Assembly (NCBI GenBank): GCA_951406725.2
Contig: OX597837.1
Span: 18,662,001-18,726,000 of the forward strand
From: Octopus vulgaris
Lineage: Eukaryota
DNA length: 64,000 bases
Direction: 5' to 3'
Positions 37,083 through 46,188 of the stretch are shown piece after piece. How positions within the stretch are numbered: the first letter of the stretch is position 1; each line of letters begins with the position of its first letter. Made by a program: the position numbers and the translations under genes. The notes beneath the pieces were generated by a model, which saw only the letters and a list, made by a program, of their open reading frames with translations, did no database searches and was not told the DNA's origin.

Positions 37083-38160
37083 GTATGGCTTTAAAAAACA
37101 TAATAAACTAACGAATATCCTAAACTCAGTTATAGTCAATATCTAATTACCAAATTATTTAACAAAATAATCACTATTCATATTTTTTAAATTTAAGTTC
37201 AAATCTAATAATTATAATATATTTAAGAATAATAACTAAATTATTATCAATAAATAAAATAATTAAGATCTAAAATTTACTCTATCAATAAATATATAGA
37301 CATATAAGGAAAACTAAATAAATTAATTAGTCTATTATTACTTACGTAAATATTAGATATTAATATAATATATTTATGAAATATATTAAAAAATTAAAGA
37401 TGAAAAAGCAAATTATAAACGTATAACGTATCTTAAAAGAACCGTACAACTATTTAACGATCTGTCTATCTATCTATCTATCTATCTATCTATCTATCTA
37501 TCTATCTATCTATCTATCTATCTATCTATATATATATATATATATATATATATATATATATATATATATATATCTATTATCTATCTATATATATATATAT
37601 ATATATATATATATATATATATATACATATATATATATATATATATATATATATACTAGCAGTATCGCCCGGCGTTGCTCGGGTTTGTAAGGGAAATAAC
37701 TATATAAGCATTTTTAGAGAGTTATAGCCAAAAAATAGCAAAAAATGCATTAAAAATTGAAAAAAAATTAAGGTAATTTTTTTTTTAAATCGTTGACACA
37801 TCGTAGATATTTTTAGAGAGTTACTTCCCTTATATAATAACGAAAAATATGCATTAAAATGGAAAAATATGATGGTAAATTTTTTTAAAATCGTAGACTC
37901 ATCGTAGACGCGCGCTAATACCCAGAAGGGCTCGATATGAATCACGACTATAAGATACCCGCTTTTGGTTAAACTACACCGCAAAATGTGGGAGTAGTTA
38001 CGAATCTAAATCGTAGGAGACAGACACACAACTTCACTGTTATATATAAAGATATAAGCCACGTAGTTATATACACATACTTTGTTATATACACATTCTT
38101 AAAAGAAAATGTTATTTTGAACACAACATTTACAAAGAATAAAATATTTTTTTGTTTTTC

Positions 38161-38952
38161 TTAACCCTTTCGTTACTATATTTCTGACCAAAATACACCC
38201 CTTATGTGTTTCAATTAATTTCTAACGTAATCATAAATTTAGTCTGATTTCATTAAACAACTATAACTTTTTTATTTATGAATACATTAATCTGATTTTT
38301 GGAAGATAATTTAGTGAAATGTTCTCAACCAATTCTATACTTTAATTTTTGTCACAAAGTGACTCTAATTGCAGGTAGATACAGGTAAATTCAACAATAT
38401 ATAAAATTATTAAAATTTTGTTCAAACATCGCTATAGAAAATGGGTTATTAGCTAATATTCAATTGGGTATACAACAAAATTTTACGATAGAATTTGTTA
38501 TTCTGGGTAACTTTCTAATACCCATAATAATATTTATGGCAAAATAGGCCTTAATTTCATTTAAGGTTGTGGGAAATAACAAACTATCGTTTCTTTCGCT
38601 TTGTTTAGGTTGAGATCAAATACCACATGCTTTTTTTTTTTCAGTCATAGAGTTAGATTTATGAAGGTCTTCAGTAGAAAATCCTTCGAATTCTGACTCG
38701 CTGCTTGATATAATGAAATTCGTATCCATTTTTTGTCAGAATTACAAATTTTGAAAACACAATAGGAACAAATTTCGGAAAAAAATCTCCCATAATTCAC
38801 GTAATTAAAATTACACTTCGATTTTTGTACAAAACTGTAGTTGAACTGTTTACGAAGTATAATACGTGTTTTCACGAATGTTCTAAAGAGATTTACTCTG
38901 ATATTCTCATTTAAATATGAATAGGTAAATTCGGGCGGCTTGGTCACATTAA
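38161..38952. mobile_element. piggyBac-like MITE
   Basis: TTAA-CCCTTTCGTTAC terminus; the opposite end is intact in the inverted partial copy at 45103-45431 with the same TTAA-CCCTTTCGTTAC. Confidence 0.65.
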
Positions 38953-39309
38953 CCAAAATTTTTTTCGGGCTGTTTGGTGCAATTATATATACATATATCT
39001 ATATATAATATTATATAATAAAATATATACAGAGTAAAATAAAAACCAATTTACCTTTTCTGTATTGTTATTCGACCGGCCGTGTGTCTTTGCAAATGTG
39101 TTGGAATGATAAGTGAGTTGTGATTTGGCGCCTTTTTTTACTAATAACAAACACACACGTGTTTGTATGTAGTTGTTTGAAACGTTTTTGTTTGCCACTC
39201 TCATATATGTATGTGTATGCGTGTGTGTGAGGAATGACACACACACACTCACGCACGCACACATGTACATCAATGCTTTTATGAGCGTCATAGAGAGAAA
39301 CAAATATTA

Positions 39310-39453
39310 CATCGCCATCGCCATAGCCATCGCCAATGCCATCGCCATAGCCATCGCCATCGCCATAGCCATCGCCATCGCCATAGCCATCGCCATCGCC
39401 ATAGCCATCGCCATAGCCATCGCCATCGCCATAGCCATCGCCATAGCCATCGC
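39310..39453. repeat. GC-rich hexamer array (ATCGCC/ATAGCC)n
   Basis: Direct reading. Confidence 0.95.
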
Positions 39454-42834: not shown

Positions 42835-45000
42835 CTAGCAGTATCGCCCGGCGTTGCTCGGGTTTGTAAGGAAATAACTATATAAGCATTTTTAGAGAGT
42901 TATAGCCAAAAAATAGCAAAAAATGCATTAAAAATGGAAAAAATATGATGGTAAATTTTTTTAAAAATCGTTGACTCATCGTAGACATTTTTAGAGAGTT
43001 ATTTCCCTTATATAATAGCGAAAAAATGCATTAAAATGGAAAAAAAACGATGGTAATTTTTTTTTTAAATCGTAGACTCATGTAGACGCTTTCTTAGCCA
43101 TTTCTGTTTTGGTGTCTTCAAGCCATGAAGTCGTTGTTCTAAAAGAACGCTGGTCTCCTTGACAACGCATTACGACGTTGATTTCCTTACACTCCCTTCC
43201 CCACAGGTGCAGGTGTGAGCGTGGACGCCAACTCCGCCGCCATCGACACACGAAAAATTATGCATTAAAATGGAATAAAAAATGATGTTAAATTATTTTT
43301 AAAATCGTAGACTCATCGTAGACGCGCGCTAATACTCAGACGGGCTCGATATGAATCACGACTATAAGCTACCCGAATTTGGTTAAACTGCACCGCAAAA
43401 TGTGGGAGTAGTTAGGAATCTAAATCGAAGGGGACAGACACTCACACAACTACAGTTTTATATATATAGATATACATAGCGCAGTAGTGGTGAGATGTGA
43501 CAGCAAAGAAAAGCATACATTCACTCTCTGCATGCAATTAGACTCGGAAAGTTCGTGAGGAACCCATTGACCCAATTTGCTGACTTTTCCGATAGCACAC
43601 AGGTGTCAATGAATGGTTGAATGACCAAATCCAAGCTTCTCTGCTAGTTCCTCAACAGTTACGATGATATTTTGTTCCACCAGGGTTTTCAGGATGTCCT
43701 TGTCGAGTTCTACAGATCTTTCAGGATGAGGCTCGTCTTCTAGGCTGTAGTTTATGGCTCGGAATTTCTGTAACCACCATTGACACTGCCTTACGCTTAT
43801 TGTCAAATCACCATATAATGCATTAATATTTATTGTACTTTCCGTTGCGTTGTTGTCTTTATTGAACTCATAAAGCAAAATATGCCAAATATGCTCCTTT
43901 GTTACTTCCAATATAGCTTTGAAAAAAATAGCTGTTAAAATCGAAATGCACTCTTTAAAACTTGCACTATGAATAAAGACAAGATAAAATTACTACCTGC
44001 TTTTATAGCAAGTTAATATAAGTGGTTTATCCCATTCCCCTCTGACTTTTAGTTCAAGCTGTTGAAAAAACCGCATTATTATATATATACATACATACAT
44101 ACATACATACATACATACATACATACATACATATACACACACACTCTCTCTCTCACACACATGCACACATTTATATTCTGTTATTCTTTTATATGTTTCA
44201 GCCTTGAGGTTGTGGCCATGCTGGATCATGTGTGTGTGTGTGTGTGTGTGTGTGTCTATCTGTCTGTCTGTCTGTCTGTATGTATATATGTATATGTATG
44301 TGTGTGAACAATAATATTTTCAACAGATGTGTTGCAAATGTATCTGATTGTTCTCAAGCTTCAATACTGTGTGTGTGTGTATGTGTGTGTGTGTATGTAT
44401 GTATGTATATGTATGTATGTATGTATATGTATGTATGTATGTATGTGTGTATGTATGTATGTGTGTGTGTATGTATGTGTGTGTGTGTGTGTATGTATGT
44501 GTGTGTGTGTATGTATGTATGTATGTATGTATGTATGTATGTATGCGTGTATGTTTACTTTATTACTAACACAAGCTACTACGGTTATTTAATGTAAAGT
44601 CCTCCTCAAATCACTCTCTGTCGCGATTTACTCTCTTCCAAGAACATTTTCACTCACTCTTATGTGTTAGCTTCCCATACATTTTACTCATGTATCTATC
44701 AGCGTGATAGAGAGAAACAAATATTACATCTAGTTTCACTTTATTCGTTGCCCACTGTGTGTGTGCGTTTGCGTGTGGTGTAAACCAGACTAAGAAAAGC
44801 ATTTGACACACACACCAGAATGTGAGTTTTCTGTAAATTTTGCTTAATTGGAGTTTAAATTTTAAAAACTGGACCTGGCATGACGCGATGCATTGTACTC
44901 TCAAAAATGCTAGGTAAATTGTAATTGAAGAAATCCTATATTGTAGATTTGTATAACTCCCAAAGGGAGGCAGATAAAATCTGCCTTTTATAATAAGAGA
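42835..45000 (-). mobile_element. Composite Helitron II, copy b
   Basis: Removing it rejoins ..ttattatataA|Tattatatatagatatatg.., which matches the uninterrupted reverse complement of 38979-39040; no TSD. Confidence 0.85.
43500..44080 (-). pseudogene. mariner 5' end and transposase N-terminus captured in a Helitron (deleted copy at 40430-40767)
   Basis: KEHIWHILLYEFNK..QWWLQKFRAINYSLEDEPH..TVEELAEKLG (HTH region); partial TIR ccgcattatt resembles 34797. Confidence 0.85.
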
Positions 45001-45826
45001 TATTATATATAGATATATGTATATATAATTGCAGTATGAAACAGTGTTTATGTATAAACAGACGACACTTATATATAGTTATTAATAAATGTATGCATCC
45101 GTTTAACCCTTTCGTTACCAAACCGCCCGAATTTACCTATTCATATTTAAATGAGAATATCAGAGTAAATCTCTTTAGAACATTCGTGAAAACACGTATT
45201 ATACTTCGTAAAGAGTTCAACTACAGTTTTGTACAAAAATCGAAGTGTAATTTTAATTCCGTGAATTATGGGAGATTTTTTTCAGAAATTTGTTCCTATT
45301 GTGTTTTCAAAATTTGTAATTCTGACAAAAAATGGATACGAATTTCATTATATCAAGCAGCGAGTCAGAATTCGAAGGATTTTCTACTGAAGACCTTCAT
45401 AAATCTAAGTCTATGACTGAAAAAAAAAAGCATCTTTATATAAGAGTGAAGTTGTGTGTCTGTCTCCTACGATTTAGATTCGTAACTACTCCCACATTTT
45501 GCGGTGCAGTTTAACCAAAAGCGTGTATCTTATAGTCGTGATTCATATCGAGCCCTTCTGGGTATTAGCGCGCGTCTACGATGAGTCTACGATTTAAAAA
45601 AATTTACCATCATATTTTTCCATTTTAATGCATTTTTTCGCTTTTATATAAGGGAAGTAACTCTCTAAAAATATCTACGATGTGTCAACGATTTAAAAAA
45701 AAAATTTACCTTAATTTTTTTTCAATTTTTAACGAATTTTTTTGCTATTTTTTGGCTATAACTCTCTAAAAATGCTTATATAGTTATTTCCCTTACAACC
45801 CGAGCAACGCCGGGCGATACTGCTAG

Positions 45827-46188
45827 TATATATATAAACGGCAAAATGTCTGTGTGTGTGTCCTTTATACAAATCTACAATTTTTCAGTTAGAGGGCTCG
45901 CACTTTCTATGGTCATTCAAAACCGTCCAAGGGTGGTCGTGCACATCTTTACATTTCCCCAGTACCCCACAAAGCTATTAAAAAATCAATAGAAGTGACT
46001 TTTTTGTGAATTTTCTATCCAAAACCCAATCAAATGCCCGAAACTTGATACGCCAATTGAATACCAGCTAGCTGTATGTGATTGGTCGGAGATTTGGACA
46101 GTACTCGCTTGTATGTGCGCACGCACGCACGCAGCTGTATATGCATGCACTAGCAGTATGACCCGGCGTTGCCGGGTCATAGTGCTAG
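45827..46188 (+). mobile_element. Non-autonomous Helitron, head-to-tail with the preceding one
   Basis: 5' tatatataaacggcaaaatgtctgtg resembles the 5' end of 24192-24571; 3' cccggcgttgccggg..CTAG. Confidence 0.7.

What the first reader, a model, noticed from the sequence alone, without database searches (positions are those of the whole stretch)
37656..46188. Nested cluster of composite, cargo-carrying Helitrons with a visible empty site
Seen: four units (37656-39756, 39770-41531, 42835-45000 on minus; 42061-45826 on plus) begin with the same 5' end (TCTCTTATTATAAAAGGCAG-like). Each ends at the hairpin+CTAG of an embedded short Helitron that keeps its own TC start. Between these ends lies unrelated cargo: a mariner 5' end, a LINE/SINE tail and microsatellites in one type, and a piggyBac-like MITE in the other. 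Excising 42835-45000 restores an A|T junction with no TSD, matching the uninterrupted reverse complement of 38979-39040. Established: Helitrons insert at A|T without TSD and capture flanking DNA by using new ends. Inference: a 5' end from one family recruits terminators from another, moves about 2 kb of cargo as a unit, and hops locally.
Basis: partly seen in the sequence, partly recalled or inferred. Interest (0 to 1): 0.72.

Follow-up and report, generated by a model that had tools for sequence, protein, structure and literature searches.

The report
Helitrons that land on each other
This pile-up is five copies of genome-wide rolling-circle transposon (Helitron) families, not one element hopping locally; across the genome these elements often insert 6-7 bases before an ATAA motif that their own front ends also carry, which likely explains why they stack head to tail and hit one exact base inside each other again and again.

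Summary
The anatomy is confirmed: four composite non-autonomous Helitrons with exact TC...hairpin-CTAG ends, a perfect A|T empty site for the nested unit, plus a fifth short Helitron. Local hopping is not supported. Each unit belongs to a dispersed subfamily (3,227 exact 5' ends; 400 host anchors), and U1-U3 have 98.5-99.3% copies elsewhere.

The added finding is directional targeting. ATAA lies at +7/+8 behind the insertion point at 11,389 ends versus 843 at a control offset, and the elements' own 5' ends carry this motif. There are 246 zero-spacer CTAG|TC junctions; 42 of 45 sampled pairs join different subfamilies. The base hit by unit 3 is filled in 7 host copies on 6 contigs, each by a structurally different guest, with at least 5 origins on the host tree.

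Unit 4 gained its terminator by nested insertion (empty site in unit 1), not read-through. A young, intact RepHel family with similar ends is the likely mover. Composite, abutting and self-inserted Helitrons are published; I did not find the motif in print, but this scan noted it earlier in fish and skate genomes. The motif alone does not explain the very high occupancy of short 5' ends.

The parts
37656..39756 (-). U1: composite non-autonomous Helitron (5'B end, hexamer array, TTAA-MITE cargo, short Helitron as terminator), lying against a (TA)n tract
37656..38052 (-). Short Helitron embedded in U1, with its own TC start; supplies hairpin + CTAG
38161..38947 (-). MITE cargo in U1 (one TTAA+TIR end at 38161; other end deleted in this copy; extent approximate)
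38627..38628 (-). Empty A|T site in U1 for the short Helitron that terminates U4
39010..39011 (-). Empty A|T site in U1 for the U3 insertion (the recurrent hotspot base)
39757..39769 (.). 13-nt AT spacer between U2's 3' end and U1's 5' end; carries ATAA at +8 from U2's CTAG
   Evidence: sequence
39770..41531 (-). U2: composite Helitron with mariner fragment and microsatellites; embedded short Helitron 39770-40396
42061..45826 (+). U4: host composite Helitron (short 5' variant), interrupted by U3; MITE left part 45103-45432; embedded short Helitron 45433-45826
42835..45000 (-). U3: guest composite Helitron at the hotspot A|T of U4, opposite strand, ATAA at +8; embedded short Helitron 42835-43470
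43474..43911 (-). Broken mariner transposase N-terminus (HTH_48 at 43609-43911; one stop; WVPHEL motif read by eye)
45827..46188 (+). Fifth short Helitron (H5); U4 landed in its 5' end (ATAA at +8); ends in a 39-nt palindrome 46150-46188
24192..24571 (-). Short non-autonomous Helitron outside the cluster: first 249 nt are 95% identical to the 5' end of the intact RepHel family, and it has the same terminator as U1-U4 (bridge to the likely transposase)

Best explanation
The cluster is a pile-up of copies of dispersed, young, non-autonomous Helitron subfamilies that arrived independently, likely because their transposase prefers A|T sites followed by ATAA 6-7 bases on, or (TA)n tracts, and such sites exist at the elements' own 5' ends and at a few internal positions. 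Shown: dispersed families, A|T without duplication, the ATAA bias, hetero head-to-tail stacks, repeated filling of one base, and nested origin of U4's terminator. Inferred: the intact 6.1-kb RepHel family moves them in trans; the transposase reads the target strand much as it reads its own left end; a same-strand newcomer inside a resident becomes the first terminator met and so founds a new composite family, while an opposite-strand newcomer (U3 in U4) would be carried or left as passive cargo.
For: Motif: 11,389 vs 843 genome-wide; 21 of 50 non-microsatellite flanks vs 5.3% of AT-rich control sites; 57 of 115 flanks are TA-type microsatellite. U2, U3 and U4 each have ATAA at +8. Stacks: 246 zero-spacer junctions against 3,227 counted 5' ends; 42 of 45 sampled pairs are different clusters; 80 of the first 100 junctions use the short start, where ATAA is at +8, vs 15 of 95 non-junction starts (hand counts; test). 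Junction type tracks the outer flank (26 of 29 short vs 2 of 8 long junctions have (TA)6 upstream, p=8e-4), as expected if the newcomer inserted in front of a resident. Hotspot: 8 exact matches, 7 distinct hosts, different guests; the label needs 6 changes on the host tree, at least 5 forced, and 0% of 200 bootstrap trees make it one group. It is one of 8 motif sites among 338 A|T site-orientations of the host; another of the 8 is hit in L203. Partner: 6.1-kb elements with 1,519-1,646-aa ORFs (one deleted copy 1,360 aa), Helitron_like_N + PIF1, 99.4-99.95% identical, similar termini.
Against: The motif is not obligatory (29 of 50 non-microsatellite flanks lack it at +7/+8). It does not by itself explain the occupancy: 7 of 14 short 5' starts but 1 of 61 long starts are preceded by CTAG, and about 2% of hosts are filled at one base; both are far above my rough estimate for an average motif site (about 1e-3). 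Most donor 5' ends have ATAA at +10, not +7/+8, so the likeness is offset. Same-strand neighbours across (TA)n spacers are not explained by the motif. The site at 38628|38627 used by U4's terminator lacks the motif. The transposase assignment rests on end similarity only (5' ends 16 of 20 nt by eye; 3' ends 89% over 36 nt). Same-strand guests at the hotspot would fall in the list, of which only 100 of 373 rows were shown (0 seen).
Confidence: 0.75

Rival explanations
1. True origin-directed integration: the transposase bound at a resident Helitron's whole left end nicks there and uses it as target, possibly two bases inside (TC|TCTT); the short motif is only the weak form of this recognition.
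For: Very high occupancy of short starts (7 of 14); 29 same-strand vs 2 opposite-strand neighbours within 200 bp; nested hits within the first 30 nt of other 5' ends.
Against: 0 of 89 long starts show the leftover extra TC that an insertion at TC|TCTT would leave; short starts also occur unstacked in (TA)n (6 of 14); the internal hotspot is not a full left end.
Confidence: 0.25
2. Head-to-tail stacks are rolling-circle concatemers, or circles that recombined into residents through shared ends.
For: Helraiser circles have exact CTAG|TC junctions (PMC5876387, passages); 3 of 45 pairs are the same cluster, and L091 shows an A-B-A pattern.
Against: 42 of 45 pairs are different subfamilies, and no ordered pair occurs more than 3 times; junction type correlates with the outer flank, which a circle junction would not; it does not explain the opposite-strand hotspot.
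Confidence: 0.1
3. One reading: one composite hopped locally to build the cluster.
For: Shared ends and cargo blocks within 9 kb.
Against: Each unit has full-length relatives on other contigs, and these are closer than its neighbour for U1-U3; Helraiser shows no local hopping in 701 events (PMC4778049, section 10).
Confidence: 0.04
4. Mis-assembly or plain segmental duplication.
For: Long (TA)n tracts around the units; read evidence was uninformative.
Against: Block ends coincide exactly with TC and CTAG; units are four different subfamilies, each with near-identical dispersed copies; the same junction types recur on other contigs.
Confidence: 0.02

Closest known systems
Canonical Helitron1 (Helibat1/Helraiser and HelibatN families; PMC4778049 passages and sections 10 and 15; PMC5876387 passages)
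   Same: TC...hairpin-CTAG ends, A|T insertion, no TSD, RepHel partner, no local hopping, AT-rich bias strongest on the 3' flank; abutting Helitrons noted in Myotis.
   Different: The text I read gives only 'AT-rich within ~20 bp'; no position-specific ATAA motif, no single-base hotspot and no genome-wide count of hetero-stacks. The logo figure and the supplement could not be seen.
Compound Helitron HelibatN539 / end-bypass model (PMC4224331, passages)
   Same: 5' end of one Helitron combined with the 3' end of another, with cargo between.
   Different: For U4 the new end arose by insertion inside the older element (shortening), shown by an empty site; cargo here is other repeats, not host genes.
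Self-insertion model for composite FoHelis (PMC5148889, passages)
   Same: Nested self-insertion; first terminator met ends the transposed unit; insertions within a few bp of another copy's 5' end.
   Different: Those are Helitron2-like elements with few cases; here hundreds of junctions in canonical Helitrons, with a measured target rule.
Maize Helitrons insert near other Helitrons (Yang and Bennetzen 2009, seen only as cited in review PMC12477314, passage); silkworm Helitrons made by combining others (PMC3789558, abstract and passages)
   Same: Clustering and combinatorial origin of families.
   Different: No sequence-level cause is given in the passages I saw.

Membership tests
Helitron1 (canonical), non-autonomous | 5' TC terminus | tested here: met
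   U1-U4 and 75 of 76 full hosts start TC or TCTC
Helitron1 (canonical), non-autonomous | 3' CTRR preceded by a short hairpin | tested here: met
   CTAG with a 4+2-bp stem ending 8 nt upstream of it; the hairpin is weak (-4.5 kcal/mol, z -0.86) but conserved in 21,464 copies
Helitron1 (canonical), non-autonomous | Insertion between A and T | tested here: met
   85 of 86 upstream flanks end in A (CTAG- and (TA)4-ending flanks left out); 69 of 70 downstream flanks start with T
Helitron1 (canonical), non-autonomous | No target-site duplication | tested here: met
   Empty sites at 39011|39010 and 38628|38627; one apparent 16-nt duplication at L147 of 30 loci
Helitron1 (canonical), non-autonomous | Autonomous RepHel partner with related ends in the genome | tested here: inconclusive
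   Intact RepHel family with similar termini and a bridging short element; mobilisation in trans is not shown
Helitron1 (canonical), non-autonomous | Circular intermediate / rolling-circle mechanism | not testable with these tools
   Needs eccDNA sequencing or an assay
Helentron / Helitron2 | TT target, subterminal inverted repeats, no CTAG end | tested here: not met
   Target is A|T and the end is CTAG; a 5' palindrome exists; no paired subterminal repeats were looked for
End-bypass compound Helitron | Progenitor locus with upstream 5' end, original terminator and downstream 3' end | tested here: inconclusive
   U4 type is explained by nested insertion instead; for U1 and U2/U3 types all copies in hand carry the short element and no progenitor was found
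Tc1/mariner fragment (cargo) | Mos1-type HTH domain | tested here: met
   PF17906, 61.1 bits, above cut-off
piggyBac-type MITE (cargo) | TTAA target duplication and terminal inverted repeats | tested here: met
   TTAA + 12-nt inverted repeat at both ends in L173; a piggyBac transposase partner was not tested

The most novel reading that the evidence does not exclude
Helitron transposase chooses targets by reading a mimic of its own left end, so every insertion creates a new polarised landing site. Head-to-tail Helitron arrays, clustering and new composite families would then arise mainly by self-targeted integration rather than by rolling-circle concatemers or terminator read-through, and this would hold for canonical Helitrons generally.
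Probability: 0.4. Interest if true: 0.7.

Novelty: new variant of a known kind. Interest (0 to 1): 0.5.

Why it matters
Helitrons are usually described as inserting at any AT in AT-rich DNA, and their tandem junctions are cited as evidence of rolling-circle amplification. A directional target rule that matches the element's own 5' end would give one cause for clustering, hetero-stacks, recurrent hotspots and terminator exchange. It is directly testable on existing Helraiser insertion sets and with the near-identical intact RepHel copies found here. In practice, CTAG|TC junctions should not be read as concatemers without checking both partners, and shared Helitron insertions at such sites are unsafe as markers of common descent.

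Tried and rejected
Read evidence for the assembly: one search listed runs. laid 3 raw-read runs and 1 contig set on 42062-46200; they gave 14, 134 and 0 reads and short multi-copy contig pieces, with no record spanning the stretch, so this tests neither mis-assembly nor polymorphism.

One ancestral nested unit spreading as a whole: rejected for most hosts. The window host and L046 are sisters, but L046's guest has, by eye, a U2-type interior and is deleted, so it is probably a separate event.

Insertion 2 nt inside long 5' ends: not supported (0 of 89 triple-TC starts).

For 7 junctions the script found no 5'B start next to the upstream partner in 6; those without two resolved units are not in the 45 pairs. 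The 45 pairs include loci chosen for having junctions and one tandemly duplicated locus (L047/L048). The residues after the stop in the mariner fragment matched no Pfam family.

Papers not held: the Helraiser cryo-EM paper, Yang and Bennetzen 2009, Coates 2012. The supplement of PMC4778049 was unreadable and may hold logos or junction examples bearing on novelty. Literature searches that found no report of the motif, judged from listings and the passages read.
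Full report
Setting. The window lies on contig C24 of a 2.8-Gb, microsatellite-rich animal genome. It is octopus-like by recall of its repeats and by earlier scan notes; I did not test this.

Observation. U1-U3 start TCTCTTATTATAAAAGG; U4 starts two bases shorter. 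Each ends in the hairpin + CTAG of an embedded short element with its own TC (38052, 40396, 43470, 45433). Removing U3 leaves A|T with no duplication, identical to U1's reverse strand for 44+33 nt. Cargo checks: mariner HTH at E=1e-16; a MITE with TTAA and a 12-nt inverted repeat, complete in L173; the 'SINE tail' is only a 48-nt, 79% match to a dispersed repeat. A fifth short Helitron runs from about 45827 to 46188.

They are dispersed families. The 5' end has 3,227 exact matches (the pattern drops copies with C at one flank position), the terminator 21,464 (same caveat) and the U1/U4 anchor 373+27 = 400. In 80 host loci taken from the first 100 rows, 76 of 83 anchors lie in a full unit under 2.6 kb, with 66 distinct flank pairs. 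U1, U2 and U3 have full-length relatives elsewhere at 98.9, 99.3 and 98.6%, while U2 vs U3 is 97.4%; U4's left part is 99% identical to a host on C13. Local hopping is therefore not needed, and Helraiser shows none (PMC4778049, section 10). Most of 30 unselected terminators belong to free 300-500 bp elements with their own TC, so the embedded short Helitrons are real independent families.

How the composites arose. The short element ending U4 sits at an A|T whose empty form is in U1 (38628|38627) and in more than 20 fetched copies (overlapping loci may count twice). The U4 type is thus best read as a longer, U1-like element cut short by a same-strand newcomer whose hairpin became the first stop. 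L203 shows the same step again: a whole composite begins exactly where that short element's TC would be and supplies the end. For the U1 and U2/U3 types no empty site was found, so read-through is not excluded. Both routes are in print (PMC4224331 passages; PMC5148889 passages).

Target rule. Behind the terminal CTAG and T, ATAA starts at +7/+8 in 11,389 places and at +13/+14 in 843. Locally 21 of 50 non-microsatellite flanks have it, against 5.3% of AT-rich control sites; 57 of 115 flanks are TA-type microsatellites and 8 are other Helitron 5' ends (19 of 37 vs 2.3%). The motif belongs to the target: the bases before it vary, and it is present in the empty host. The elements' own starts carry ATAA at +8 (short 5'B start, U4's embedded element) or +10 (long 5'B start, autonomous element). 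In the window U2, U3 and U4 all have ATAA at +8; U1 abuts (TA)n.

Stacks. There are 246 exact CTAG|TC(TC)TTATT junctions. Of the first 100 listed, 80 use the short start, against 15 of 95 non-junction starts (hand counts; Fisher p=3e-20). Of 45 resolved adjacent pairs, 42 join different clusters. Short junctions have (TA)6 upstream of the stack in 26 of 29 cases and long ones in 2 of 8, which fits insertion at the A|T in front of a resident and not a circle junction. 27 of 92 unselected composites have another Helitron end within 200 bp (29 same strand, 2 opposite), against 10 of 200 control segments.

Hotspot. The U3 junction occurs exactly 8 times, in 7 distinct hosts on 6 contigs (two are a tandem duplicate). 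The guests differ: U2 type, U3 type, two of another cluster (one short and one long start), a copy with a 116-bp array, a 626-bp deleted copy and a two-element stack. On a tree of 87 host left parts the filled hosts need 6 changes, at least 5 forced, and form one group in 0% of 200 bootstrap trees. Other positions in the 45-nt window are hit 1, 2 and 1 times. No opposite-strand guest was found inside the hosts. All 8 guests are on the strand that has ATAA at +8; same-strand guests were seen in 0 of the 100 rows shown of 373.

Likely mover. A search for Helitron_like_N gave 150 scored matches. Of 13 fetched, 10 share one 5' end and 9 of these the same 3' end within the stretch; the elements are about 6.1 kb, 99.4-99.95% identical, with ORFs up to 1,646 aa, Helitron_like_N + PIF1 and an HAH motif. 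The short element at 24192-24571 joins this family's first 249 nt (95%) to the terminator of U1-U4. Mobilisation in trans is inferred.

What does not fit. The motif is not obligatory, is offset by 2-3 nt from most donor ends, and cannot alone give 7 of 14 short starts occupied (1 of 61 long) or the same-strand bias across (TA)n spacers. Binding of the transposase at resident ends, or unusually hot (TA)n tracts, may add to it. Why short starts go with (TA)n is unexplained. Read data did not test the assembly.

Known and new. By every testable feature these are canonical non-autonomous Helitrons. Compound elements, abutting copies, self-insertion and clustering are published (PMC4778049, PMC4224331, PMC5148889, PMC12477314, PMC3789558; passages or named sections read, no figures). 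PMC13282606 (passages) counts Helitrons in an octopus genome without describing such structures; PMC13286980 (passages) reports only the AT preference. I found no paper stating the position-specific motif or its link to stacks (searches), but I could not see the Helraiser logo, its supplement or the cryo-EM paper. After my tests, one search showed unreviewed scan notes of the same rule in a fish and a skate genome; these are leads, not evidence. Verdict: real, a known kind of element, with a measurable self-targeting behaviour that is worth testing; interest 0.5.

Noticed in passing
window 46150-46188; L233-L238: The H5 family ends in a 39-nt palindrome with CTAG at both ends (z -8.6). Of 6 loci checked, 4 have the loop in the window's orientation and 2 have it inverted relative to the element body (flip and flop forms).
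   Followed up: partly
L141 (C4:43080166), L142 (C20:36337221): Two hosts carry only the first 19 nt of an opposite-strand 5' end at the hotspot base, stopping inside the 5' palindrome: an aborted insertion or a deletion remnant that was then copied.
   Followed up: partly
window 44970-44986 (minus) and all 5'B starts: The 5'B end carries a perfect 7-bp inverted repeat 14 nt from the start, more typical of Helitron2 descriptions; role unknown.
   Followed up: no
L147 (C1:771489): A short Helitron flanked by an apparent 16-nt direct duplication, unusual for Helitrons.
   Followed up: no
L138, L139: A second position about 25 nt downstream of the hotspot is filled twice by opposite-strand guests; L138 has the same host and guest types as the window but at this other base.
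   Followed up: partly
L047/L048 (C24:3.315-3.333 Mb), L043/L107 (C1:76.50-76.52 Mb), L091: Larger pile-ups of up to about ten units, some with tandem duplication of whole nests.
   Followed up: partly
L052-L061: Many near-identical intact RepHel copies (99.4-99.95%) with STPR repeats at the N-terminus: a candidate active Helitron.
   Followed up: partly
C29:27.64-27.83 Mb: At least eight RepHel matches of a second family, all on one strand within 200 kb.
   Followed up: no
window 39310-39453: A (CATCGC/CATAGC)n hexamer array inside the U1 type varies widely in length among copies.
   Followed up: no
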